A stretch of 64,000 nucleotides of DNA from assembly GCA_951406725.2 (NCBI GenBank), contig OX597837.1, positions 1,302,001 to 1,366,000 of the forward strand, written 5' to 3'. Shown piece after piece: positions 9,279-60,920 of the stretch. How positions within the stretch are numbered: the stretch's first letter is position 1; every line of letters starts with the position of its first letter. The notes below the pieces were generated by a model. It worked only from the letters and a program-made list of their open reading frames with translations. It had not been told where the DNA came from and searched no databases. This DNA is from Octopus vulgaris (Eukaryota). The translations under genes and the position numbers were made by a program.

Positions 9279-9389
9279 ATGCACGCACATGCACCGAAAG
9301 ATACTTTGGTAAGAGTGAGTGAGTATGTGGTCAGGGGAAAGTCAGGCAGATGGTCTCTTGCGTAAAGATGCGTTTCGGTCAAAAATTGG

Positions 9390-30919: not shown

Positions 30920-31113
30920 AGTTACAAGGCATGAATTGAATAGGGGAAGAGTGTTAGTCGACAATGTCAGCATCAGCATGCGGCTGCTTCCCTGTTTAAT
31001 CGACCCTGGATTGATGAAAGGCAGCGTTGATCTCAGCGGGATTTGAACTCGGAACGTTAAGAGCCGGAAGAAATACAGTCCGGCATTTCATCCAATGTTT
31101 TTACGATTCTGCC
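30920..31113 (-). mobile_element. SINE family C, degenerate
   Basis: ATCGACCCTGGATTGATGAAAGGCAGCGTTGATCTCAGCGGGATTTGAACTCGGAACG...ACGATTCTGCCA. Confidence 0.75.
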
Positions 31114-31123
31114 AATCCAACAA

Positions 31124-31395
<272 letters not shown>

Positions 31396-31796
31396 TTTCA
31401 TCTGTCTATCTATCTATCTGCCTATATATATATATATATAATGTATATAACGATCTACATATTTATGAATCTCTCTTTTCATCCACCTATCCTATCAATC
31501 TAAGTATTTATATCTGCCCATAACCGTCTCTCTCTGTCTCTCCCTTCCTGCATACGTATCTATCCTTCCTCCACTTCTCGTCCCCCTCCACCATCAGTTA
31601 AACATTAAGATTTAAGCCAACAACATGGCTTCCAATCCCCCTGTTGTTTGTTTTATGATTTTGTGACATTCCTCTATAACTGCACCGACTTAATATCCAC
31701 ATGTGCGCGATCATACACACACACACACTTACATACAGATGTATATGCATATATACATACACACACATTGCTGTGCATGTGTGACTGTTGCTGCGA

Positions 31797-31825
31797 GTGG
31801 GTCTCAGAGGTGCGCTTAACTGTGA
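31797..31825 (+). repeat. 29-bp exact dispersed repeat, copy 1 (GTG-GGTCTCAGAGGTGCGCTTAACT-GTG-A)
   Basis: Identical to 41125-41153; not part of any SINE family seen here. Confidence 0.95.
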
Positions 31826-32071
31826 AATACATCTCGATGACAACGGCGATGACGTCAACGAGAGTGACTTAAGACCATCATCTCCCACCACTACTACGCC
31901 TGTACCTCTCCCTCATCATCTCGCCATTGTCGTGCCCCTCCCCCTCCTCCTCCTCCTTCTCCTCTCCCGCCTCCCGTGTTTGGGAATTAAGTGTCAGGGG
32001 TGAGAGGTCAATGTCTGTTAGATTACATTGTTACAAGTTATTTTTCCTGCTAGTTACTTAAACACACGCAT

Positions 32072-32152
<81 letters not shown>

Positions 32153-32648
32153 GAGTATATATTTACACGTGCACACACAAAGTTCGTGCACGTACACGCG
32201 CGCATACACGGGCTTACAAACATAAATATGCGAAACACACACGCACTTACATCGACTTGATGCGAATATACATATACACACACATACATATACATATGTG
32301 TGTTTGTATATTCATCTAGCCTATGTCTAGGGCTATATGTTTATGCATATCCATATGTGTATATATATATGTGTGTGTGTGCGCGCGCGTGCATATATGT
32401 ATGTATATATATATATATATATCTACTTACACACATTCACATATTTAGACAATGCATAAAGCTCACATACGTATACACACACACACATATATATATATAT
32501 ATGCATATCTGTATGTGCCTGTGTACACATGCACACAAACACATGCACACCCGCCCACACGCACATGCTTATGTATACATATCGACACAAGATGTAGTTG
32601 TGTGCACGCATACGTATGAGTATATTTCGTGCATATTCATATAGACAC

Positions 32649-32684
<36 letters not shown>

Positions 32685-33081
32685 GTTCATATGTGTATAT
32701 ATATATATATTCACATACATACGTGAAACCATAAGCTTATAGAGACACAGAAGTGAAGAGTCATATACATACATACATACAGAAACCCGTCATACTCTGG
32801 AATCTGACGTACACACGTCAATCTTCGCATGTATATATACACGCACATGCGTACATGTACAAGTAGGCATATACATATCCCCACACTGGAGCATAATCTT
32901 ACACATAATTATCTCTCTTTTTTCCCAAATACACACACGGATAATTTTCGCTGCAGCACTCGTATCATTCAGTGCACATACAACACGCTCACACATGCAC
33001 AGAAACAGATGCAGTGCTCTAACAACATTACGGTCAAAGGGACCACCAACACACACACACACACACACACGTACACACACG

Positions 33082-33112
<31 letters not shown>

Positions 33113-33205
33113 TTTCAGTCCTTTTCCTCATGAATTTTAAATATACACCGATAAAGATATCTGTGTAGAAATCTCTCTTTCTTCTCCACTTTCTCTCTGT
33201 CTCTG

Positions 33206-33297
<92 letters not shown>

Positions 33298-33329
33298 TAT
33301 ATATATAGTGTTATTCTTTTATACAGTTA

Positions 33330-33516
33330 TTCCTTTACTTGTAGCCACACTACTTTAATGTTTTAAAAGCCTGGTATTTATTCAGTTGGTCTCTTTTGCC
33401 GAGCCACTAGGTAAAATTTCAGCAAAGAAGTAACAGTAAATGTACCACCACTGGTTGTCAAGTAGTGGTGAATGACACACACACACACACCCACCTGCGC
33501 CTATTGTATATATACA

Positions 33517-33554
<38 letters not shown>

Positions 33555-33735
33555 TATATATATATATTATATATATGCATATATACAATGTATGTGCCTG
33601 TCTTTGTGTGTTTGTCCCCCACCACCGCTTGACAACCGGTGTTCGTGTGTTTACGCTCCTGTGAGTAGTTCGGCAAAAAAAGTGACCTATAGAATAAGTA
33701 CAGTGAAAATGACTGAAACAAATAAAAGAATAAAA
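33330..33735. mobile_element. Two family A SINE 3' halves in inverted orientation around an (AT)n tract
   Basis: 33330-33480 minus (GGTCTCTTTTGCCGAG...GGTTGTCAAG); 33595-33735 plus (CTTGACAACCGG...TTCGGCAAAA...GACTGAAAC). Confidence 0.75.
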
Positions 33736-34464
33736 GAAAAGAATATCTAATATGGAGTTGATTTGGCCAACGAATGGAACTCCCGATGCTGGCTAAACAT
33801 CGCAAAGCAATTTCATCCTAGCTATCGATTGTTTCCTCTATGGCTTACCATATAAATATCAAGAAGAATATTAATAAAGTTTGGTAGTAATTGCTATTTA
33901 AGAGGAATCCCAATTCAATAGAGCGCTTATTGAGTTTTCCTTTCCGCTGCTACCTTAGCTACAAACAGTTACCGTCTTCAAAATATGTAGATTCTCTTTA
34001 AATACCCACAATATGGAGATTAAATTAATCTGAAACAGATTTCTGAAGCTATTCTATACAAATATCTGTCTACCAATAATGGTTCCATAATGAGAAAAAG
34101 AAAACAAAAGTAATTAAAGAAATAAAAAAATATTCAGAATTACCAGCAAAATGGTTGTACTTCAAAAATTGCAGAGCTGTTTATGCGTTCAGGTTGTTTA
34201 AAGCTATATCTGGAGTCACAAGTACGCATACTTTAGACTATAAAGAGGTTATAAATCGTAGCCAATCTGTATTCATTGCGGCAGCGCTACATGTCTACGT
34301 GTGTGTGTGGACTTAGCTACCTTTGTGTAAGTGAGTGTGTTTGTGTGTGAGTGGATGCGCATGTACGTGTGTGTGTGTGTCTTTGTGTGAATTTTTATGT
34401 CGTGTGCTAATGGGTGTGCATAAGAAATATAACGCTGTGTTTCTGCGTGTGATTTCATCTGCAT

Positions 34465-34503
<39 letters not shown>

Positions 34504-34593
34504 TGTGTGTGTGTGTGTGTGTGAGTGTGAGAGAAAGATTTATAATTTCATACAGCTCTGTAAGTAAATACATGTACAAGTAGGCATATGTAT

Positions 34594-34652
<59 letters not shown>

Positions 34653-34665
34653 ATATATATATATA

Positions 34666-34732
<67 letters not shown>

Positions 34733-35127
34733 AGTGAAAGAGGGAGAGAACAATTTGCTTTTATGTTATATACATAAAAGAAATATAACATTAACTCGAA
34801 GGTATTAAATTTTACAATTAAAAGTTTGATTGTGACTTCGAAGTTGCGGCTTGCTCACCTGTGTGTGTGCGGCGGGGAGTATATATACTGATCGTAGTGG
34901 ATAGTCGTTAACTGGAATAATATGAATGTGTGCTAGTGTATACATGTGTCTCTGTGTGTATATACGTGTGTGAATGTGTGAGACTGGTATTGTGTATATC
35001 CCTCCTCTGTGTGTGTATGTGTATATATGTTTTTATGTATAAGTATTTGCATGTATGTAGCCATGTACATATGTATGTGAACACATTTATGTATGTATTT
35101 ATGCTTCAGTGTATATAAATGTGTGTG

Positions 35128-35260
35128 TATGTATGTATGTATGTATGTATGTATGTATGTATGTATGTATGTATGTATGTATGTATGTATGTATGTATGT
35201 ATGTATGTATGTATGTATGTATGTATGTATGTATGTATGTATGTATGTATGTATGTATGT
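35128..35260. repeat. (TATG)n microsatellite
   Basis: Seen directly. Confidence 0.97.
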
Positions 35261-36129
35261 GTGTATGTATGTATGCATGCATTACGTATGTGTGTGTGCT
35301 TTTTGAATGTAAGGCTATAATTTTACTCTGCAACCGGTTTAAGAGATTCAGCAATGGCGCTACCCGGGGTAGATATTTGCATATCACGTGTACATGTGTG
35401 TATAGATATATGTGCATGAATGCTACTAAACGCACACACACATTCATATACATAAATGCATATTCATTCATGTGTGTATGTGTGTGTGTATGCGTGCGAA
35501 CATATATACATATGTATGGATATGTGACTATGTGTATATGTGTATGTGTTTATATACGTCTATGTGTGTGTTTATATATATGTTTGTGTGTGTGTGTGTC
35601 TGTGTCTGTCTGTGCGTATGTATGTGGTGCGCGCGCACTAATGCCTAGAGTGAAACAGTCCGGCTTTGCTGCGCTTACGGCTGGAAAATGGTGATGACTG
35701 TGGGATGATGGGAAGGCAAGTGAATGCTGGGAAAGCATATATGGTAATGCAGTAGAAGACTGATTCTAATTGATGGCCAGTTTTGGCAAGCCGTCTCAGA
35801 CTTTATAATTAAGGATGACATATTCATCCTCGTTGTTCCGGCCGAAACAGTCACGAAGATCTGCATACGCAAGTGTACGTGGCCATAGGTGCGTGTGTGT
35901 GTGTTTGAATATGTATGTGCTTGTATTTGTCTAACTTTAGCAATGCGTTTGGGTGTTCATTTCTGTGTGCGAGTGGCTGTGTATCTTTGAACATGTGTCT
36001 ATGAATGTGCGTGAGACTGAGCATTGTATGTGAGTGTGTGTGTGTGTGTGTTTGTTATCAGATCAGTACACATATAGAAAAAGGGAGGATGATAAATGAG
36101 TAGAGCGAGGAAAGTGTTTGCGAGTGTAT

Positions 36130-36512
36130 CTCTTTTAGCCTTTACTTGTTCCAGTCATTAGACTGCGGCCATGCTGGGGCTCCACATTTTTTTAAAGTCT
36201 GGCACTTATTCTATCGTTTCCTTTTGCCGAGCCGCTAGGTTATGGCTGGTTGTCAAGCGGTGATGAGGGGACAAACACAGACACAAAAGACACAGTTATG
36301 TATATATATATACATATATATATATATACGACGGGCTTCTCTCAGTTTCCGTCTCCCAAATCCACTCATAAGTCTCTGGTCGGCTCGAGGCTGTAGTTGA
36401 AGACATTTGCCGAAGGTGCCACGCAGTAGGACTGAACCCAGAACCATGCGTTTGGGAAGCAAGCTTCTTCCTGCACATCCACGCGTTCGTCTAACCATAC
36501 AGCCACGCCTAT
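36130..36512 (-). mobile_element. SINE family A with internal deletions and a duplicated head tip
   Basis: TTTACTTGTTCCAGTCATT...GACGGGCTTCTCTCAGTTTCCGTC...GGACTGAACCCAGAACC...CAGCCACGCC. Confidence 0.88.
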
Positions 36513-36800
36513 CCTTATATATACACCCCCCCCACACACACACACACAAACACACACGCATAGGTGTGAGTGACTCTTATGCAATTTTTCTTGACTTTCT
36601 GTTCCATTTTTTATTTCCAGCCCTTTCTTTTTCCTCTCTCTTCACTTTCAACTCCGTATCCGACGCAGTGCTTTGCCCGAAGCTCTTTCATTTTATAACA
36701 AGTTTCTTCGAGCGTCAAACTAAATAATATTCTCCGTAAACGTCGTTTGAACGTTTGTTGTTTTTCTATTTCAATTGGTCCCTTCCTATTGATTTGCTTA

Positions 36801-36846
<46 letters not shown>

Positions 36847-37107
36847 TAGTAAGAAGAGGAATGTAATATCCAGACAAGCTAATAACTGGGGAAAGTTCTC
36901 CGAACAATGCCATACTTAAATGACCTGAAGAGTTCGTACCAATAATGCAGAAATGGCTGCATATGAATATACAACAGGACGCAGTCGGTGCGATCGAAAC
37001 ACGTGTCGGACTGTTATTATGAATAAAGCAACTGGAAATGAGCATAACATTTGAAAATTCAAATTATTCATTCTCCTTATTATCAATATATATATATATA
37101 CATATAT

Positions 37108-37306
37108 ATCAAAATAAGCAACAGGATATCAAGAAGTGATGCAGTACGACCGTTTCAAGCGTCTCCATTTAACTGAACAATCATTATATCAATTTAAATT
37201 TGATGTGTAAATTGAATTGATGTAATGATTGCATTGTTCAATTAAATGGAGCCGCTTGAAACAGTAGTACTGCATCACTTTTGGATATCCTGTTGCTTAT
37301 TTTGAT
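37108..37306. mobile_element. ~200-bp palindrome (foldback), probably derived from a Penelope-like element terminus
   Basis: ATCAAAATAAGCAACAGGATATC...GATATCCTGTTGCTTATTTTGAT; arms of about 95 bp with few mismatches, centre near 37203. The palindrome is seen directly; the origin is inferred. Confidence 0.7.
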
Positions 37307-38350
37307 TTTATTCACCTTATTTTGAAGTTGTACGGATTATACCGCACTAATTTTTGGTGCTTCACCTGAATCTCAGTTATTTTGCTCTCTCTCTTTCTGT
37401 ATATATATATATATATACATACATACGCGCGCCCTCACACACATATACATGCGTCGTTTATGTGTGTGCATGTTTATTTCGTTTAATATTGCTGGATAGG
37501 TTGCTGCGTGACACATTTCAAGAGTATGGTGAGAAGTGCGAGGTGGGATGCGAGACATCTTCAAAGCAGAGGCCGGAACAAGTCCTTTTAAAAGAGTGAA
37601 TTCTCTTAAAGGCACATACAATGGCAGGTGTTGCTTTTAAACCGTATGAAGAATAAAGTCTAGCAACCAAGTAGGCAGCGGCGTCATTCGAACTCAGAAC
37701 GCAAAGCGGGTCTCAAGTATGGTTAAGAAGTTAGCTATGTAGACTCGTGAATTAAGGTTCAGTCCCAGTATGTGGCACCTGCGGCAAGAGTCTAGCAATT
37801 CCCTGGGAGATACTTTTGTTGACAGAGACTGTGTGGAATCCTGTTGCGTGTGTATAATTATTTGGCAAAAAATAAAGACAACATGAACAATATCGAACAT
37901 TTGAACTATCGATTAATTGTTTGACCAGTGTGTTTAACAAACGAGTTAGAAAAACTAGTAAAAGAAAACGGTTGATCGATAGATTTGTTAGTGGAGTAAG
38001 TAAGCCATTAACTAACAATAACAATAAAGGGCCGAACCAGTGCGTGGGTTTCTTATTACCAACATAATGCCCCTCCCAAGGTTCAGTAGTATATACATAT
38101 GTGTGTGTTTGTGTGCTGTGAATTGATATATCCACGTTAATTGATAACACATAGGTAAATTCGATTACGTAATTACAGTGCAGTAATGCCGTTAGAATAC
38201 ATTTAGGTGTTCATACACAAACGGCTAATACAAGTATTGCGAACAACACATTTAGAATACGATGCACAAAAGCATGAATTTCACATAATTTTCATATGTA
38301 ATTAGATTATGAATTATATTTGAAATTTATGCTTTTCTGCTTTATAACCC

Positions 38351-38445
38351 CATACCACCGACACCATTGGAAGACCCGTAATACTTCGTGTAATCTCATA
38401 CCACCGACACCATTGGAAGACCCGTAATACCTCGTGTAATCTCAT
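38351..38445. repeat. 46-bp tandem duplication (2 copies, 1 mismatch)
   Basis: CATACCACCGACACCATTGGAAGACCCGTAATACYTCGTGTAATCT x2. Confidence 0.95.
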
Positions 38446-39484
38446 GCAGTCTTAGCCAAAATGGAAAGAGATTACCAAGATTTCTTCCAAGTGGAACGCT
38501 TGGAACTTGAGAGTTTTTCACCTGATATCATACATAGTATAGATAACCCACAGATAATAAATATATTTAGTGTAAATGAATCAAGTACAACTTTTTAACA
38601 TAAGCAGTGAATAATTTTATTCTGCGTTTGTATTTACGGAATATAAAAATATAAAGATACGTTTCCACAGTGTAAATGTTTTGGGATAGCAATATAATTT
38701 CGTTCATCTGAAACTATATTGATTTCTATAAACATATATAGCGAAAGTGGGAGAGGTGGAAGGAACTATAAGAGTCACACGTTGAATCTAGTCATCTATA
38801 CCAAAACGGTGCTACTATATACATTTCTTTCAGTTTTAGTATTAAAAGTTTTTCTTTTTTTCTTTCTTTTTGTTTTTGTTTATTTTCCTTTTTTGCTGTA
38901 TATGAACAAAGTCATATTTATCTGACCCGGATCCGGTTTTGTTGAATTTAGCCGGCGAAGGTTATGTAATTTTTCTATATTTAAAACCATGAACGGTTTA
39001 ATGATTTTACACACACACAGTATTTCCTTTTTTCTTAGCTCTTCATGCTTAGATTGAATCTTCACCTTGAAACAAAGAAAACTAAAAGGATTCATTAAAT
39101 ATCGTCTGTTGGTGCCATTAGAATGACATGATGGTGTAACTTGCAAAACTTTCGATCATAGTGTTTCTTCCTCAAGGTTGACCTGGAACTAAATAGGCGC
39201 AACAACAATAACAGCATCAACTACAATCGCAAAATGTTGTCTGATTTTTGTGGGGATTTTTTGTGGGGCACAATTGCGTGTATTGTCTGTTAAGCCAAGA
39301 ATGATGAGACCCAAATAGGTTGAAATTGCGACGCTTCGATCATTCTTACATGCTTTTATCTCTTTCCCGTTGGCTTCTTTCTTTACAGCACCTTCACACT
39401 CATATATACATGCATACAACATGCACACAACATGCATACATACATACACACATATATACATACATACATACATACATACATACA

Positions 39485-39518
<34 letters not shown>

Positions 39519-39908
39519 GAAACATACATACATACATTTGCCTGTGTGTGCACGCGTGCGTAAGACAGAAAAGTGTGTCTATGTTTTGATGTATATGAAT
39601 ATATATATTTAAATATAGTATTGGAGTGTAAATAAGCGAGAGCGAGAGAGTAAGTGTGTGTGAAAGTAAGTGAGAGAGAAAGAGAGAGAATACAGACAGA
39701 GCAGTTGTGTGTGTATATGTCCGTAGTTTGTTGTATTGTATAGCCGGTGCGCGTTTGTTTGTTGTTATTTGTGTGTGTTTTCTAAGTGCGTTCGCGTTTG
39801 ATATGTGTACGTCAGTTCGCGTGTGTATGTCTATATGTGTATGTGTTTGGATCTTAGCCTTAGTGTGTGTGTGTGTGTGTATGTAGGCGAATATGTCCGT
39901 ACATGTTT

Positions 39909-39959
<51 letters not shown>

Positions 39960-40332
39960 TGTGTGTGTTTGTGTACGAATATTTCGCACGCATGACATCC
40001 TCTATCAATCAAGTGTGGAGAAAATGCGTGTGCAATTTGGCAAACACGCGTTTTCTGTTGAAATGAACAAAACAATGAGAACCCCCTCCCACCGCCCTCG
40101 TTCCTCCATCTCTCTTCCCCTCCCACCCACACACCTTCTGCCTCCACCAGCACCGAACCCTTAACCCTAGCTTTCACCTACCCCCCCCCCCCCACTACCA
40201 ATCCATACCACATTTGCATCTACTTCATATTCATATATGCATATTTTCTTGATTCTTGTTTCTGCTCAGCTTCAAAGCCTCGAAATAGATTCCTCGCCCC
40301 CGCCATATTGCATTAAGCAAGTTATTGTCGAC

Positions 40333-40425
40333 ACCCCCACCCCTGCTGGCACCCCCGCTGCCACCCCCGCTGCCACCCCTGCTGCTAACCCTGCTGCCAC
40401 CCCCGCTGCTACACCCGCTACCACC
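40333..40425. repeat. 12-bp GC-rich minisatellite (ACCCCYGCTGCY) x ~7
   Basis: Seen directly; gives the TPAA repeat in ORF 40237..40467. Confidence 0.85.
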
Positions 40426-40749
40426 ACTGTAACGACTACTATTTCTCTTACCACTAACACCTTTTGATGATGATGTTGTGGTGATAGTGATGTCGCTAAT
40501 GACAAAATCACTGGTGGTGATGGTGCGGCGGCGGCGGTGGTATTGGTGATAATGTTTTTATGAAGACGATGTTGAAAAAGAAGGAGGAGGATAAAGAATT
40601 CTAACTTAGGCACCAGGCCTCCTTGGTTTTCTTTTTCGTGTCATGAAAGACATTCGATTGTCACGCAGTGTATGACTGGTACTTGACTTACTTGGCTGAT
40701 ATCGGCGAGGTCGATAGTGATGAGGCTGAGAAAGATAACGATAATAAAG

Positions 40750-41760
40750 GTGATGATGATTTTGATGATGTTAATGATTTCTTTGACTTGATCACGAGGG
40801 CCCAAGACATTGCTGACAATCCTGGGACAAAATAGAATCCACAAAGATTAGGTTCACATTGAGAAAAAAGAAAGCAGAAAAAACAAAAGATATGAAGGAT
40901 TTCCGCAAGCTCCCTAAACGAAGAAGAAGGCCATGTAGCGTTAGGCCCGGGTAGCACCTGTCAAAAGCCCAGATATTTTGTAACACTCAAGGCATCTCCG
41001 TTTCATCCCCTTTAGAAGCGTATTACCCACTCTCGATCTATTCAGCTTTTACCGTTCTTAACCACAATTCGTGGAACATAACAAGAGGCAGCACCCTTCT
41101 CTCTACTATCACTTTGGTCTTCACGTGGGTCTCAGAGGTGCGCTTAACTGTGATATTTGAAGAATTTCATGAGGGTGTGGTCAAAGAGGAAAATACCTGT
41201 CTTCAAACTTAACAGACGAACCCACTGCACAAATTCTTTTGCCATAGCCGTCTAACCGACATCGAATAGCCACCTTCCCTTGCCAAAGGAAAATGGCGCA
41301 TCAATCTTCACTCAAGACTCAACAGACACCTGAATTCGTCTCATACTTGACAGCAGATGTCTGGCAGAAGACCCGTAAGCTGCTGATGTACGGACATTGG
41401 TCGATAACGTGTAGGGCAGTTTCTTCGCCCTGTGCACATCTGTTAGCAAATCCATACCTGCAGACTTAATTTCAAATAAATGTCATCTACGTGTAGTATT
41501 TCCACGCCAAGGACTTTTGGAAGTTGTCAATAGCCTCCAATCTAAAAAAAAATACCCCGCCAAAAATCGATCGCTTTGACTTTCTCGACGACGCTCAGTC
41601 TGTCATTATTGATAATCTACATTAACCCCGTCTAAAATGCAAAAGTTGTTTTGCTGCCAACGGTCTTTTCCAGTTGGCACATTACTGTGAACGTCTGGCA
41701 ACATTCTCGATGTCGGACGTCGATCTTATCCTGACCTGTGATTGCAGCTCATTCAAAGAC
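40750..41760 (-). mobile_element. L1/Tx1-clade LINE 3' part (ORF2 C-terminus with zinc knuckle, 3' UTR, (ATC)n tail), pseudogenised
   Basis: Minus strand: IDNFQKSLAWKYY ... C(N)RCAQGEETALHVIDQCP (zf-RVT-type CxxC..EETxxHxxxxC, about 41391-41450, one indel) ... MAKEFVQWVRLLSLKTGIFLFDHTLMKFFKYH/VKTKVIVERRVLPLVMFHELW; T-rich 3' UTR ending in degenerate ATC repeats. Confidence 0.8.
41125..41153 (+). repeat. 29-bp exact dispersed repeat, copy 2, interrupting the LINE ORF
   Basis: Identical to 31797-31825; removing 25 nt restores the LINE reading frame. Confidence 0.95.
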
Positions 41761-41954
41761 ACGAAATTTAGATTTTACTCTTTCATTCTGTTTACTAATT
41801 TCACTCACGAGGCTCGGGCGGACCCGTGACTCTAGTAAAAGCCGTTTGTCCTAGACGCTACGTACTGGGATCCGATCGAATGTTGGGCTTGTGTTTGCAT
41901 AAACGAACGTTGTTATCTATTCAATCATACTGTGTCCATATACTCCTCCACATG

Positions 41955-42003
<49 letters not shown>

Positions 42004-42178
42004 TCACACACGTACCCACGCCAGCATGGATGCACATTTTGTGCTTTTTTCTATATTTTAAGGGGTTATATCATTATTCTTCGTGTAACGATAAACCGTG
42101 ATGTTGTGGTGTTCATGTCCTCGTTCCATAAATATAATACAATACGCCTAGTATAGTTGAAATGCAGAGAATCTAGAA

Positions 42179-42480
42179 CATAGGTTCTCAAAGTAGGCGC
42201 TACCGCCCTTCCCCGGTGGGCGCTGGTGCCTAAGGGGGGAGGTGCGGTAAAGAAGAAGGTGGCGTTGGGAGGAAGGCAGTGGATTGAGGTACGCTATGAA
42301 TTCAGTATAATATTGTTATAGTATTGTATACAGATTATATAATATTATATTAAATATCAAATGATTCATAGTGTATGTAAATTAGTAAAATATAAAATAT
42401 ATATTTATACATAAAAATAGGGGGTGGGGATATTATGTGGCCATGAGGGGGCGGTGACTCAAAAAGTTTGTGAATCTTTG
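42179..42480. mobile_element. hAT-Charlie-type MITE
   Basis: Degenerate TIRs CATAGGTTCTCAAAGT ... AAAAGTTTGTGAATCTTTG; flanks ATCTAGAA / TTCCAGAT resemble the Charlie NTCTAGAN target. Confidence 0.65.
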
Positions 42481-43739
42481 TTCCAGATTAAAAGACTCTT
42501 GCACAGAACACCGCGCAGTGGGGTCGAACCGAATACTTGCTGATTGCGAAGCGAACTTGTTAACTGTTAGGCCATACTTTCTATTAACTGTACTTTATCA
42601 AGGACGGCCAAGGGTCAATTAGTGCTGTAGGGGTCAGTAAGTGCTGAATGTAGGACAAAACATGGTGTCACATGCGCATGTCAGTATGTAGCTATGTTAT
42701 GTGAAAAGATTTTTACAAAGTAGAGAGACAGCGGGGGGAGTGAGCGAAGATGGAAGGGTGGGGTGGAGTGTCTGTGGTTGGCGGGGTGGGGAAGGGGGTC
42801 TAAAGAACGGAGGTGGTGGTGTTTGATGGGGGAAGTGTTGGAGAAAGTGGGATGGTAGAAAGGCAGGCAGGAGGCGGCGGGAGTAAGTGGTGCCGATGGC
42901 GGAGAGTGGAGTGGGAATGGGGTGGGGTGGGGTGGGTAAGGAAAAAAGAAAGACGAAGAGGTCGAGGAATGAGGGATGTGGTGGAGTGCAGCTTGTAGGG
43001 GGAGCGTGGGGGTCAGCTGAGGGTGAGTGTTGAAGAAATAAAGGGACGGGGGGGAGTTGGTAGAGAGGTGGGGGTCATTCGGAGTGTGAGATGTAGGAAA
43101 AGAGTGGTTAAGACTTGGATTGAGAAGACGAATGGAAGAAAGTTGAGTTCTTGGAGAATGTGGTGTGTGGACAGTTGGGTGTGGGCGTGGGGTGGAGAGG
43201 GCTGGAGTATAAGAATAAAAGACGATGGTTAGTGGTGAGGGTGGTGAGTTTTGGTGGAGGAAGCGGTCTGTAGGGTGGTGAGGTGGAGATAGGGAACAAG
43301 AAAGACGGGAGTAGGAAGAAGCCGGAGGAGTAGGGGAGGTGGGGTAGAGTGAAGAAAGAACAAGGATGTGGTACTGGGGCGGGGTGGGGCGGTTTGAAGA
43401 CCGGCTGGACGGTCGGTGGTTCTCCGTTAATGGACTCCACCATTAACAATCATTATTCGTTCCTCACCAACGAACCGATGTTCATCGTCACCGTCCAGTC
43501 GAACGACGCGTCCACCACCGCCGCCGCCTCCATATTATCATCTTTACCGATGTCACAGCCACCGACGACATCATCATCATCGTCATCAGTGTTGCAGTAT
43601 CAACGAAAATCAATACCACCACCATTGCCACTACCATCACGGTTCCATAGACACCATCGCAATTGACATCTACACCACATCACCATCTACACCAGCATCA
43701 TCACCACCAATACTGACTCCACCACCATCACCAAGATAA

Positions 43740-43875
43740 CGAGTCCGATGTGCTAGAAAAAACAGCTAATACTCCCTCAAATAACAACCTAAAAGTAGGA
43801 TACTTGGGATAACTTGGCCCTGGTTACTCTTTGTACAAGTTGTAGAAGACGGGATAGTCACGGCCGGAATGCTTT
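43740..43875 (-). repeat. Family D dispersed repeat
   Basis: TGCTAGAAAAAACAGCTAA..CTCCCTCAAAT...AAGACGGGATAGTCACGGCCGGAATGC. Confidence 0.65.
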
Positions 43876-44132
43876 CATCATCATCATCACCAGTATAACC
43901 ACCGTGACCACCACAACGATGATTTCAACGCAGTCATTCTACTTGCTGGTAAGACCCACGAACAACTTTCAGATTATAAATTAATGTCCTAAAGAAAGGA
44001 ACGACAGAGTCCTAAAGAAAGTGGTAGTCACGTTTGGAGGAGCTGTGATCATATGTGTGTCAAACCCCACCAATTACTATATCGTCATCAATCACATCAC
44101 CAATATTACTACTACTATAACTACTACTACAG

Positions 44133-44196
<64 letters not shown>

Positions 44197-44667
44197 GACT
44201 ACTATTTTAATTTTGACCAAACCATGCTTATGCCGTAGGCTCTATAATTTTCATTGCGTACATTTTTAAAAACAATTTGTCGTGATTTGAAACAGGCATT
44301 TATGGATGTTGTTTCTACCTTGTCAAACGGACAGGAAGAACAGAAGAGAAAATATATTCGGGCATTCGAGATTTATTAAAAAAGTGAATACAAAGCTTTT
44401 TGAAGCTATCACAAGCAACTTCTGTCTGCTGCAATTTCAGTTTTAGTAACTTATATATTTCTAAAAAAAAACATTGTCAAACATGTTGTTTGGAAGTCTT
44501 GTATTCTAAATATAATAATTAATAACAAATTATACATTGCTTGCTTTTTGGGGGAGCCATAAAATGGTACCCACCTTCTTTAGAAAGAGTACGCTAGCAC
44601 TGCCGATAGTACAAGGCAGAAAAGTCTAGTAAAGGGATTCTGCATTTGCTACCGTATTATTGTTGTT

Positions 44668-44825
44668 ATGGAGCCCCAAGTTATCCCTGATCAAACAGAT
44701 CTATGATCAAAGACATTCACAAATCTATCATTTATTTCTGCGCAGGGGACAAATCTGAGACCATGTTCTCAAATGGGTTCTTTTGAGATTTGGCTACTAT
44801 TTCTCGCAAACGTAACGATAGAGCC
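44668..44825 (+). repeat. Family D dispersed repeat
   Basis: GCCCCAAGTTATCCCTGATCAAACAGATCTATGATCAAAGACATTC...GAGATTTGGCTACTATTTCT. Confidence 0.65.
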
Positions 44826-45891
44826 CATTTTTCTCAGAATGGGGCGTGATAGCGATAAGAGTCAGCTTTCGCTAACGAACAAAATGGCTGCCGTATATTT
44901 TAATTCGACGCTCAAACACGATGTGCCATGGCTGCCCAGCCTCACTTTTATTGCCTTATAATTCATCCTTTACTGATTCTCTTTACTTTGCGCCGCCCAC
45001 ACAACCCCCAACCCACACCCTTTACTATAAATTCTGGTCACAAAGGTTTCCTTTGAACACATGGCAGCATACCATTCCAGATGCCGAAGAAATCTGAAGA
45101 CATAAAATTCTTATAAATTTTTGCCCTCTTCTTACGTGTTTACCGAAATATCTGGAAACTTTACAGCTTGTGTGGTGGAGGTGGTGGCGGAGGCGGTGGT
45201 ACGTGTTTTCGTGGGGGAGGTGGAGGTGGTTATATGTATGGTGGCGATGGTGGTGTATGTGTGCGTGGTGTTTGTGTGTACGGTGATAGCAATGATGGTG
45301 GGCGTGGGAGGGGGTGCATGTATGTTTGTAGTGAGTTTGTGGGTGTGGTGTTTGTGACGCTGTGTGTCATTGTGAGACTGTGTGTGTTTTTGTGCTTGTT
45401 TTCTGCGTACATCTCATTAGTAATGCTAATGGTGTGTGTTTATGTGTGTGTGCGTGTGTATGCGTATATGTTAGTCTGCATTATGATAATCGATGAATGG
45501 TTTGTGTGTTTAGTGTTAGTGTGCGTGTGTGAGTGTTGTGTCTATGTTGTTTGTATGCATGTGTGATCAGTATTGGCTGTATGTGTGTGTGTGTGCGTGT
45601 GTCTAGTGTGTATATCCACGTAAGTGGTTTTACATGTGTGTTAAGCTGTGGTATGTTAGTAAGGTCTGTGTGTGGTTTACGTGTGTCAAGTGTGTGTGTT
45701 TGTATTTTGTTTGTGTCTGTGTGTGTATGTTTGAGTATATGTATGTTATGGTAGTCTAAATGAGAGTCCACTGAATATCTGTAGCGTGTGTGTGGGAGAC
45801 TATATACTGTGGCTATGGTGATATGTGTATAGGTGCTGTGTGTGTATATGTGGAGAATCAGCTTCTATTTCTGTATGTTTACGGGTAATGC

Positions 45892-45931
<40 letters not shown>

Positions 45932-46988
45932 TATATATGTGTGTGTGTGCTATACGTGTGTGGTTGTGTCTAAATGCGGTATATCAGTGAATGTATGTAT
46001 GCCAATGTGTGTTTTGTGTATGTATGTATGTATATATGTATCTGTGTGTGTGTACAACTGTGTAGTATCTAATTTGAGTGTCTCTCTTCCGTAAATTCGG
46101 TGTTGTGTGCGGTATGTGGTGAGGTGTAGGAAGAGGTGGACAGAGAAATAGGGAGAAGCTGGAGGAGACATGAGGTGGGGGGGGGGAACTTGTAGAGGCA
46201 TAAAGTAGTAGAGTGAGGTGAGAGATAACGAAAGGAGAGCAAAGAGTCGTAGAGATGGTGGCGGCAGTGGTGGTGGTGTGGAAAATGGTTTTAGTAGGGA
46301 TGGTGGTGGTGGGATAGGTGTTTCTAGTGTTGATATAGATCTTGCATGTGTGTGTATGTGTGGATATACACATACATGATTACCCATCGTCAAATACACA
46401 CAGTGTGTGTATATATATATATATGTGTGTATTTATATATATACGCACACATAATGGTAATATATAAACAGAGAGTTTGGTTAAGGAGTTCAACCATTGC
46501 CAGAGGCCATTACGACGATAGGCCCTCCTCAACTTCTACAACACGTGTTTCGGTGTCACAGAATAGCGCCCGCGGCTCAGTGTCTGGGTGGAGTCAAGAT
46601 TTATATACGGCGGTGCATGGCCATAAATATATATAAACATACACACACACACACACACATGTGCATATGAATGCGTGTATAAAAATGTATGTGTGTGTGT
46701 GTGTGTGTTTGTATGTATAAGCAAATATACGAGTATGAGCATATACACCGGCACACACACATTCGCATATATATATATATATGCATACATGTGTATGTGT
46801 GCGTATATATATGTATATATATATATGTGTGTGTGTGTGTCTGTGTGTGTACACACACACACGCACACATATATGAAATAGAGGAATAGATACTTGCGGA
46901 CACACATTTAAAAAGGGGCTGGAATAGTTAGACATAAATAAATCTCTTACTAATAGTGGTGGTGGTGGTGGTGGTGGTAGTGGTGGTA

Positions 46989-47036
<48 letters not shown>

Positions 47037-47421
47037 AACTTTTGACAAGCGAATTACCTTCGCTGCTCGTTTCAGTAAGAACCCTTCCATGTTTTGTGAA
47101 TTTTCATATAATCATTGCTGGAAAGTATTTTATTGTTATGGTTTAATCTGTTATTTCGTCTCTCAACGTTTCTTCGATAAATCAGTGAAAATCTGTAGAG
47201 AGAGCAGCGGTGATGCGAAGCCCTTGATGATGGGGGATAGGGAGTTGTTGAACTCTGGAAGGCAAAGTGTGGGAGAAAAAAACGGGATGAAATTTTGCAA
47301 ACTCATCAAGAATTTTCAACGCTTCCGCTTCAATACCACCACCACCACCACCACCACCACCACCACCACCAGCATCTCCACTACCCTACAATCTTAAAAA
47401 ATATAAAGAAAAAAGGATCAA

Positions 47422-47709
47422 TTGAAAGTTCTGTTGTGTCTGGGGAGAGTCATTCTCTTTTGGTGCCTTATAATTTGACACACCGGTAAAATTTCCACTT
47501 ATTACTTTTTTATTTTTCTAAAATTTTCGTTGCGTCTTGCAACCTTTTCAATAGTTTTGAGAGTCAAAGCTATTGAAAAGGCTGCAAGGCGCAACGAAAA
47601 GTTTAGAAAAATAAAAAAGAAATAAGTGGAAATTTTACCGGTGAGTGAGTTAAATTATAAGGCATCAAAAGAGAATGACTCTCCCTAGACACAACTGAAT
47701 ATGCTTCAA
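47422..47709. mobile_element. ~290-bp near-perfect palindrome, probably derived from a Penelope-like element terminus
   Basis: GTTGTGTCTGGGGAGAGTCATTCTCTTTTGG...CAAAAGAGAATGACTCTCCCTAGACACAAC; 3-nt loop at 47561-47563; each arm carries a hammerhead-like TTGAAAAG-stem-GAAA. Confidence 0.75.
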
Positions 47710-47809
47710 CACTCGAACACACACGAATAATCTTACAAACCAAATCCAAAAACGAAATTAAATGAAAAATTAAGAGAAAAGACATTATCTCTGATGATAT
47801 TCTGATTGT

Positions 47810-48230
47810 CATAATATGTGTTCGGTTGTTACGCCTTCACCAGCGTTAAGTAGAGAGAGAGAGTAATCAATGGACATATTTAAGATAATGAGTCAAGTCT
47901 GAGTGTTACGCCTTTTAGAAACTTTAACCATGGATCGAAACCAAAGACTCGATACGGCTTTAGCATTTCGAAACTTTGTTATACACACAACCCAACAGAA
48001 ATAGGGTCTCGTTAGTTATAATAGATATTTGGGGAGTTTATTAACTGACGAAACCATTTGAAAATGAGTTAACAATGTGACGGAGAGGAATGTATTTGAA
48101 TATGTTTATTTCTGGTCGGAACCAACTCCAGCATCCCTGGATGGGACAAATATGCAAGCGGAAAGTATATAATTCAGTACTGTCTGACCAGTGTCCGGTG
48201 ATTGGTTATAAAACCTGACCCCTGTTGGGA
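47810..48230 (+). pseudogene. Decayed LINE apurinic (APE) endonuclease domain
   Basis: Motifs in the expected order: VFGCYAFT (cf. VYAPT) at 47818, IFGEFI (cf. GDFN) near 48026, LSDQCPVIG (cf. SDHxPV) at 48180; many stops and frameshifts. Confidence 0.45.
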
Positions 48231-48983
48231 TTACCCCGAGTGGAGTGTGTAGAAGTCTTACAAGTTAAAAACAAACAACATAGAACCTATCAAAATTGGA
48301 TGAGTGGCTTGAGGGCCAATGCTGGCGATTCGTAATCTGGTGAGATGAACATCACCTGAGTTACCAAACCCAAGAGACACTTTAAAGGAAGTTACGCCAA
48401 TAATTAATTCTACATTGGACCAATAAAATATATATAATGAAAACCGGATGTGAAGAAAAGTTGGAAAATATTGCTTAAAGAAAAATGGACTTGTGTCCCA
48501 AAGGCAAGAATATTATGAGAAAATGGAAGCGGAATTATTTCAAAATTTGGAATAATTCAGATGAAAAATGAATAATCTAAAACGTCATCAGATTTGTAGA
48601 ATTTAGCGTTTTGAGGATTACCTTTAGTCCAAAACTGAGTAGAAGACTTAAGAACGAAGAATAAAATCCGAAATGCTGGATTAAATTAGCCAAACGGCAA
48701 TTGAAATTATGCAAGTCGCCGATGTACAATTTTTACCGTGTCTTGGAATTAATAGAGTCATTTAAAATTCAACAATTTCTGGGTCTTAATTCGTCTTAAT
48801 TCCATTTAAATCTTCTTAAATCGTCTTCAGTCTTACGTATATAGCCTAAAATTTTCTTAGAATTTCAATTGGGAATTACAAATCAGAACAATAATCTCAA
48901 AATACACTCACGAGGAATCGATTTTGATGTATATACGTGTAGCCTATATGTGTGTGTATACGTGTGTGTACATGTGTGCATGT

Positions 48984-49024
<41 letters not shown>

Positions 49025-49185
49025 GTGTGTATGTGTCTATATATAAATGCTTGCGTGTGTGAGTCTATATGTATATGTGTGTGTGTCTATACTATATACA
49101 TATATATGTATCTATAAATATATATATATATATATAAATATATGTATCTATAAATATGCGTGTCTATAGATGTGTGTATATATAT

Positions 49186-49223
<38 letters not shown>

Positions 49224-49710
49224 TGGTGCGTGTATCTATGAATGAATATCTTTTTATCTGTGTGATTCTATACATCTGCATAATGGTATGTAATTATGGC
49301 ATGTACGTGTAAATGTATGCCAGTAGGTATTCAGGTATACATGTGTATGAAGGTGTATGCGATTCCATACATACATGTCTATGAGAAATGAATTTTACCA
49401 TAACTGGAAGGAGACTGCATTCCTTAAAATGCGAACTGTTATTGGATGTCCTGTATATATGTGTGTGGGGGAGACGGGGGATGGGTGGATTTTGTCGATG
49501 GTCTTCGGCCATTCCAGTGCCAACACCCTCCAGTGTTTTTTTTTCGCAGTTGAACTCATCTAATCCCCCCACCCACATTGTGTAGTAGTTTAACACGATC
49601 TCCTAAGGGATATAACTCAGACGGAACTAACACAACTTCACCTTCTCATCATTAAAAACACCCGCTCACACACACATATATGTTTATATACGTACATATA
49701 CATAGTTATA

Positions 49711-49759
<49 letters not shown>

Positions 49760-51031
49760 CACACATATATATTTATACTAATGCATACATTATATAAATA
49801 TATATTTATATAAATACACACATATATAGTTATATATATATAACTGCACATACATATATGCATATATATATATATTATGAGAGAGAAGACGAAGGTGTAA
49901 GAGTGAGGGTAAACGGAAGAAACACTACATCATCCATTAGAAAGAAACAATATTAAAGAAAATGGGAGAAAGTTAGGGCGATTTAGATAGGTAAATAGAA
50001 AGACTGAGAGAGAGAGAGAGAGGGGGGGGGGCTGTTGATCGTACAAACCTAACATTTAACATTATTTGATGTGAGAGCATCAAGTGTATTGCAGAGTTGG
50101 TCAATATATCTTGAAAAACCCTTCACCCGTGAGGTCGAGATAAGCAACGAATAACATATTAGCTGTGATGTCTGTTGGTGGTGTTGGTAGATATGGCAAG
50201 ACGGTTGTCGAAGAAGAAGAAGTAGGAGGAGGAGGGGAAGGAGGAGGAGTTAGAGTAAGAGTACGAAAAGTGGTGGTAGTAGTAGTAGTGGTGGTACTGG
50301 TGGTCGTTGATATATTTTCTCGTTTCAGTACAAACTCTCTTTGCAATAGTTTTGTTGCAACACCTATTAACACGAATCTGTGATTGGACATCTATCAAAG
50401 TATCTCTCTTTCCCTGTTAACAAACGCACTCACACACGTCTGTGTATATGTTCGTGTGTGTATGCGTGTGCGTACGTGTATATACCTGTGCATACACAGG
50501 CAAAATGCTCTCTTCTTCGATCGTACCTATAGAAGAAAATTTCTTCGTTTCAGTGAGTTGTTAATTAAATATTACGTATGTTTACGATACTCTTAACAAA
50601 TATTAGTCCCTTTTTACAGATCATCATGGTGTCAGCCGTTCGACATCAAATGACAATTCTTAAGGGGCATCAGAAACGGAAGGTGTATTTGCCTTGTCGT
50701 CCCATCAATCGTAACTCCTCCCAGTACCCCTACATTCTCAGCGACCCCCACATCAATCAACAATGAAACTATCCAAATGATGAGATTTCCTTGTCGCGTA
50801 GGTGTTTGAGACCCTGCAATCGTAACGAAAAATTTGCGTCTTAATTTTCGCAGGATTTGGATAAAAGCGCTGGGGAGGAACTCAATAGGACGACTAGCTT
50901 CATTCATTCGCCCCTGATTTTCTAGACGAGTAGCAAAAAGGGTCAGGTATGCAATGGTATACCCAGAGCAATCACCATGTGTCACCACGAACGGAGCTAT
51001 ATATTTCACCCAGTATTTATTATTATTATTA

Positions 51032-59781: not shown

Positions 59782-59849
59782 ATTAAAATCATTCTGAAGA
59801 AAAGAAAGGTTGCTAGTCTATAAAAACCAAATGAAATTACTTGACTTTC
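59782..59849 (+). repeat. 68-bp direct repeat, copy 1
   Basis: 67/68 identical to 60853-60920. Confidence 0.95.
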
Positions 59850-60852: not shown

Positions 60853-60920
60853 ATTAAAATCATTCTGAAGAAAGGAAAGGTTGCTAGTCTATAAAAACCA
60901 AATGAAATTACTTGACTTTC
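60853..60920 (+). repeat. 68-bp direct repeat, copy 2
   Basis: 67/68 identical to 59782-59849. Confidence 0.95.

What the first reader, a model, noticed from the sequence alone, without database searches (positions are those of the whole stretch)
41060..41250. The 25-nt block breaks an otherwise open Tx1/L1 ORF2 frame, evidence that copy 2 is an insertion
Seen: the minus strand reads ...ATG AAA TTC TTC AAA TAT CAC [AGTTAAGCGCACCTCTGAGACCCAC] GTG AAG ACC AAA GTG ATA GTA GAG AGA AGG... With the block present there is an immediate TAA and a frameshift. Deleting exactly 25 nt gives the continuous MAKEFVQWVRLLSLKTGIFLFDHTLMKFFKYH-VKTKVIVERRVLPLVMFHELWLRTVKAE*, which resembles an L1/Tx1 C-terminus. 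The LINE continues on both sides, so the motif arrived after the LINE and does not mark the border of a 9.3-kb inserted island.
Basis: partly seen in the sequence, partly recalled or inferred. Interest (0 to 1): 0.7.

Follow-up and report, generated by a model that had tools for sequence, protein, structure and literature searches.

The report
Copied 25-base patch in dead LINE
Twenty-five bases identical to a unique site 9.3 kb away sit as an insertion inside a long-dead LINE retrotransposon, likely a scar of error-prone DNA repair or replication; it is real but ordinary, with no sign of a function.

Summary
Confirmed, and ordinary. The block at 41125-41149 is an insertion: 45 of 45 other copies of this L1-clade LINE, intact ones included, show a gap of exactly 25 columns. 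Its only other match in the 2.8-Gb genome is a single-copy site 9,328 nt away, same strand. The match runs past the insert: 4 nt at entry and 3 at exit, or 4 with the base seen in three other runs and 39 of 45 paralogs. That is the footprint of microhomology-primed copying out to the donor and back, with no target loss. The insert is present in 5 of 7 runs laid, under three organism labels; none shows an empty allele, so it is no assembly artefact. Correction: the frame is not 'otherwise open'. The copy has five further stops, a frameshift and about 23% neutral decay, so the patch hit a dead element. Insertions of this size with kb-distant donors are published for polymerase theta (PMC4183433), and this scan noted similar patches in other genomes. 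No sign of function.

The parts
41125..41149 (-). 25-nt insertion (copy 2) in the LINE; can be placed up to 3 nt further 5' because insert and target share three bases
   Evidence: 45 of 45 paralogs gapped by exactly 25 columns; 25-nt gap in intact relative L067
41150..41153 (-). 4-nt entry microhomology: target bases that also precede the donor tract
41124..41127 (-). exit microhomology: last 3 bases of the insert equal the target's 3 bases before the junction; 41124 adds a fourth in its older state
   Evidence: base at 41124 in runs X5, X6, X8 and in 39 of 45 paralogs
31796..31825 (-). copy 1, the likely donor: 25-nt tract 31797-31821 with its shared flanking bases, in single-copy DNA
   Evidence: only other genome match; 31770-31940 has 1 match in the genome, itself
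40765..41765 (-). 5'-truncated, decayed L1-clade LINE: end of ORF2 with the zinc-knuckle region, and 3' UTR (ends approximate)
   Evidence: blastn to paralogs; tblastn and DNA alignment to intact L067; domains of L067
41038..41245 (-). the locally open C-terminal stretch that the insert interrupts (32 codons before, 28 after, stop at 41040-41038)

Best explanation
The 25 bases are an insertion into a dead L1-clade LINE, identical to a single-copy site 9.3 kb away and likely copied from it in one germline event by microhomology-primed synthesis out to the donor and back. Shown: insertion status, unique partner site, shared bases at both junctions, no loss of target bases, presence in other runs. 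Inferred: a free 3' end in the LINE (break or stalled fork) paired with the donor over 4 nt, was extended by about 25 nt until it had copied a second short match to the other side of the target, let go and rejoined there. Inferred, less sure: the enzyme was polymerase theta acting in end joining (about 55%) and not a replication-fork template switch (about 35%). The scar then likely fixed by drift and does nothing.
For: Gap of exactly 25 columns in 45 of 45 paralogs. Only 2 genome matches at up to 2 mismatches for the 29-nt tract and for its 22-nt core, 9,328 nt apart in 2.8 Gb. No other similarity between the two neighbourhoods (best local scores 28 and 24 after masking). Microhomology 4 and 3 nt, 4 and 4 with the older base; 9 of 39,870 25-nt segments within about 10 kb would give 4 or more at both ends. 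LINE decay 14/58, 17/64, 5/32 by codon position against 23/290, 6/320, 13/160 in long-ORF copies; chance of 0 mismatches in 25 at 20% pairwise divergence is 0.004. 5 of 7 runs laid span the block without a gap. The genome has a gene whose two tested exons match polymerase theta best. Polymerase theta makes 2-35 bp insertions with donors up to 2-5 kb away (PMC4183433, passages) that start and end at microhomology (PMC7454005, passages).
Against: Typical polymerase-theta inserts are local, AT-rich and rarely over 10 nt per round (PMC7165422, passages); this one is 25 nt, 56% GC and 9.3 kb away, beyond the 2-5 kb cited. The junction statistic was computed after the fact for one event. The enzyme cannot be read from one scar.
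Confidence: 0.85

Rival explanations
1. Two steps: a 9.3-kb tandem duplication followed by a deletion that removed all of the second copy except its first 25 bases.
For: Same strand and orientation, and microhomology at both junctions, fit this too.
Against: The deletion would have to end exactly at the old junction: 45 of 45 paralogs show no gain or loss beyond the 25 nt. One out-and-back event explains that for free.
Confidence: 0.04
2. An RNA-templated patch: a LINE reverse transcriptase copied 25 nt of a transcript spanning the donor into a break (class 2 TSIP-like).
For: Intact relatives with 1145-1149-aa ORFs abound; RNA templates are argued for such patches (PMC5110952, parts 1-2 of 4).
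Against: No poly(A) tail or true target-site duplication; the repeated 3 bases are present in the donor. A diffusing RNA would not favour a donor 9.3 kb away. Published experimental inserts were 73-414 bp and from distant regions.
Confidence: 0.05
3. The reverse transcriptase jumped to the donor and back while this LINE copy was being inserted, so block and LINE are the same age.
For: The block lies inside a LINE copy and leaves the flanks collinear.
Against: The LINE copy has decayed by about 23% at conserved columns, the block by 0 of 25 (P 0.004 at 20% pairwise divergence).
Confidence: 0.02
4. A 22-nt mini mobile element with a 3-nt target duplication inserted at both sites.
For: Both sites show the same three bases on either side of a 22-nt core.
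Against: The core has 2 matches in the genome at up to 2 mismatches, no terminal inverted repeat and no stable fold (-0.8 and -0.2 kcal/mol).
Confidence: 0.02
5. Assembly or sequencing artefact.
For: X2 and X3 are flagged as possible sources of this DNA.
Against: X5 and X6 (one study) and X8 (another) span the block without a gap and differ from the window at about 1% of other sites.
Confidence: 0.01

Closest known systems
Polymerase theta-dependent templated insertions with kb-distant donors (class-switch junctions, distal end joining; PMC4183433, PMC7454005, passages read)
   Same: Length within 2-35 bp, donor kilobases away in cis, microhomology at start and end.
   Different: Germline and fixed, in an invertebrate-type genome; one junction with no target loss, not a join of two distant breaks; donor 9.3 kb away against 2-5 kb; enzyme untested.
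Local TINS scars of theta-mediated end joining (PMC7165422, passages read)
   Same: Direct-repeat templated insert with short entry and exit microhomologies.
   Different: Those are copied from break-flanking DNA, AT-rich, rarely over 10 nt per round; this is 25 nt, 56% GC, 9.3 kb away.
Germline MMB-TI, template-switch insertions linked to MMBIR (PMC8421209, passages and section 10 part 1 of 2)
   Same: Germline, 25 bp or longer, microhomology at most junctions, return to the original template, accumulation as harmless variants.
   Different: The classes described in the part read are mostly inverted or quasi-palindromic and local; here one direct copy from 9.3 kb.
Class 2 templated sequence insertion polymorphisms (PMC5110952, parts 1-2 of 4)
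   Same: Donor intact, no poly(A), no true target-site duplication, microhomology.
   Different: Much shorter, donor close in cis, no microdeletion, not seen to be polymorphic.

Membership tests
Templated insertion (microhomology-primed) | Sequence absent from the ancestral target | tested here: met
   45 of 45 paralogs gapped; an empty orthologous allele was not seen
Templated insertion (microhomology-primed) | Intact, identifiable donor elsewhere | tested here: met
   one exact partner, single-copy context
Templated insertion (microhomology-primed) | Microhomology at entry and exit | tested here: met
   4 and 3-4 nt; 9 of 39,870 by chance
Templated insertion (microhomology-primed) | Donor older than the insert | not tested
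   both read-laying runs went to copy 2; rests on parsimony
Polymerase theta scar | Depends on POLQ | not testable with these tools
   a POLQ-like gene is present, which shows only possibility
Polymerase theta scar | Local, AT-rich, under about 10 nt (typical TINS) | tested here: not met
   25 nt, 56% GC, 9.3 kb (PMC7165422); the kb-distant subclass (PMC4183433) still fits in length
Class 1 TSIP / LINE-mediated retrocopy | Target-site duplication of 5 nt or more, poly(A) tail | tested here: not met
   neither present (definition)
L1 clade LINE (host) | ORF2 with APE endonuclease, reverse transcriptase and C-terminal zinc knuckle | tested here: met
   in intact relative L067: PF03372, PF00078, PF13966 (the last just under its cut-off); best solved match human L1 ORF2 6e-59 against R2 5e-22; window copy matches its residues 976-1109 at 1e-16
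Tx1 subclade (host) | Placement in the Tx1 branch of a reverse transcriptase tree | not tested
   no reference set at hand; ORF1 has a weak CCHC knuckle (E 0.0016, under cut-off), recalled as Tx1-like

The most novel reading that the evidence does not exclude
Lossless out-and-back copying of 25-70 nt from donors 1-10 kb away is a frequent germline mutation class in this lineage, about one surviving scar per few hundred kb, so dead LINE copies hold a datable fossil record of how far broken or stalled DNA ends reach. In 824 kb, 3 of 6 isolated direct low-copy pairs lie under 10 kb apart, but only this one is shown to be an insertion.
Probability: 0.25. Interest if true: 0.4.

Novelty: new member of a known kind. 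Interest (0 to 1): 0.15.

Why it matters
By itself little: one neutral scar in a dead transposon. It is a clean example, because the paralogs give the pre-insertion sequence and related runs recover the older junction base, so both microhomologies can be read. It also disposes of the idea that the two copies bound a 9.3-kb mobile island. A genome-wide count of such scars would give donor distances for germline repair in an animal group where I found no such measure (not searched specifically).

Tried and rejected
Rfam scan of 31000-42500: 83 matches at E up to 1, all below gathering scores, none overlapping either copy. Six-frame reading of the donor region gave no convincing ORF. DNA folding of block and target: no stable structure. 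No RNA holder listed by the run search; X3 is only guessed to be RNA, so nothing is said on expression. Run X10 (organism D) has a hole at 41111-41178 with no loose end; I first took it for a possible empty allele, but one search showed the contig simply ends there. X7 gave no contig across the site. A survey of insertions of 15 nt or more in about 50 kb of aligned LINE copies found 4, none with a donor inside its locus, but it missed this very insertion and the loci are 3 kb long, so it is uninformative. Two stricter neighbourhood scans required exact matches and missed the 68-nt pair, so one search replaced them; its 7 inverted pairs under 10 kb are probably transposon terminal repeats (inference) and were not counted as scars. 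Abyzov et al. 2015 (deletion breakpoints, templated micro-insertions) is not held and was not read. No earlier scan notes near this place. No supplements were read.

Full report
Observation. The 25-mer occurs twice in the window, at 41125-41149 and 31797-31821, both on the minus strand, and in none of 100 shuffles as a pair. The exact match is 29 nt, because four more bases agree on the 5' side. A genome search with the 29-mer and with its 22-nt core, each at up to 2 mismatches, returned these two places only, and the reversed control none. The 171 nt around copy 1 match nothing else (such DNA searches skip common words and are not proof of rarity).

The host. The window matches a large repeat family at about 70% identity. 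Intact relatives exist: L067 and L068 carry a 1149-aa ORF with endonuclease, reverse transcriptase and a zinc-binding end, whose best solved relative is human L1 ORF2. The window copy matches residues 976-1109 of it, with 5 stops and a frame change, and spans roughly 40765-41765. So L1 clade is shown; Tx1 is plausible but untested. The repeats look cephalopod-like from memory; L1-Tx1 families are listed as recently active in one octopus (PMC13282606, passages). I did not establish the species.

The block is an insertion. Of the 29 best paralogs (40 scored of 171 candidates), 25 have an implied gap of zero between the left and right flanks; L006, L009, L011 and L028 have other indels or insertions next to the site; none holds the block. 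In a multiple alignment of 45 copies (those 29, 2, 10, 4 long-ORF copies), all 45 are gapped by exactly 25 columns. The LINE therefore continues on both sides, is not the source of the block, and lost no bases.

It is real and shared. Seven runs were laid. X2, X3, X5, X6 and X8 span the site without a gap and without a change inside the block; X7 and X10 have no contig across it; none shows an empty allele. X2 and X3 may be the source of this DNA. X5 and X6 (study P4) and X8 (study P5) are independent, and X6 differs at 12 of about 1,400 positions. X5, X6 and X8 all carry a different base at 41124, the base found in 39 of 45 paralogs (5 have another, 1 a third, none the window's) and the next base of the donor. 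The window's base is thus a later change, and the original match was 30 nt.

Order of events. At 154 columns conserved among paralogs the window copy differs at 36, spread evenly over codon positions (14/58, 17/64, 5/32), unlike long-ORF copies (23/290, 6/320, 13/160). That is neutral decay of about a fifth to a quarter, though part could be subfamily difference. Zero mismatches in 25 has probability 0.004 at 20% pairwise divergence and 0.07 at 10%. The insert is therefore much younger than the LINE copy and older than the roughly 1% split among organisms A, B and C. It did not kill the element.

Mechanism. Target and donor share 4 nt at entry and 3 nt at exit, 4 with the older base; only 9 of 39,870 segments of 25 nt in 31001-51000 would do as well at both ends. 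The simplest account is one event: a 3' end in the LINE primed on the donor, copied 25 nt until it had a fresh match to the other side of the target, and returned. The junctions are symmetric, so they do not by themselves give the direction; but copy 2 is a proven insertion, and the reverse direction would need an unknown source plus a second event with the same boundaries. Copy 1 was not checked in other runs. Polymerase theta makes 2-35 bp insertions with donors up to 2-5 kb away (PMC4183433, passages), enriched for microhomology at both ends (PMC7454005, passages), and this genome has a gene whose two tested exons match polymerase theta best. Against it, typical theta inserts are local, short and AT-rich (PMC7165422, passages), and this one is 56% GC with no deletion. 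Replication template switching leaves similar germline inserts, about 100 calls of 25 bp or more per person across all its classes (PMC8421209, section 10 part 1). I put theta at about 55% and fork switching at about 35%.

How common. In 824 kb around the window, 19 isolated low-copy pairs of 24-400 nt passed the filters; 10 lie under 10 kb apart against about 0.5 expected. Seven of the 10 are inverted and probably transposon ends; three are direct (68 nt at 1,071; 40 nt at 2,368; this one at 9,328), of 6 direct pairs in all. Only this one is shown to be an insertion. The scan's own notes list similar patches in three other genomes; I did not check them.

Function and verdict. No RNA family, ORF or stable fold was found at either copy. 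The observation and the main interpretation stand; 'otherwise open frame' does not. It is a new instance of a known kind of mutation scar, of low interest.

Noticed in passing
window 59782-59849 and 60853-60920: 68-nt direct repeat with one mismatch, 1,071 nt apart, unlike flanks, only these two matches in the genome; the second copy ends at a splice-donor-like site. Possibly a second local copying scar.
   Followed up: partly
window 38351-38442: 46-nt tandem duplication with one mismatch.
   Followed up: no
G000:C24:1613580 and 1615948: 40-nt direct pair, one mismatch, 2,368 nt apart, unlike flanks.
   Followed up: no
G000:C4:93803409-93833335, C47, C50 and others: Many L1-clade elements with 1145-aa open frames, several in head-to-tail arrays with a period of about 5.87 kb; suggests recent, perhaps site-specific, insertion or tandem amplification.
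   Followed up: no
G000:C24:24250265-24263828 (L149-L154): Exons of a family A DNA polymerase; two tested exons match polymerase theta best.
   Followed up: partly
window 37130-37283: Hairpin-like stretch scoring on both strands against a miRNA model, below the gathering score; probably a palindromic repeat.
   Followed up: no
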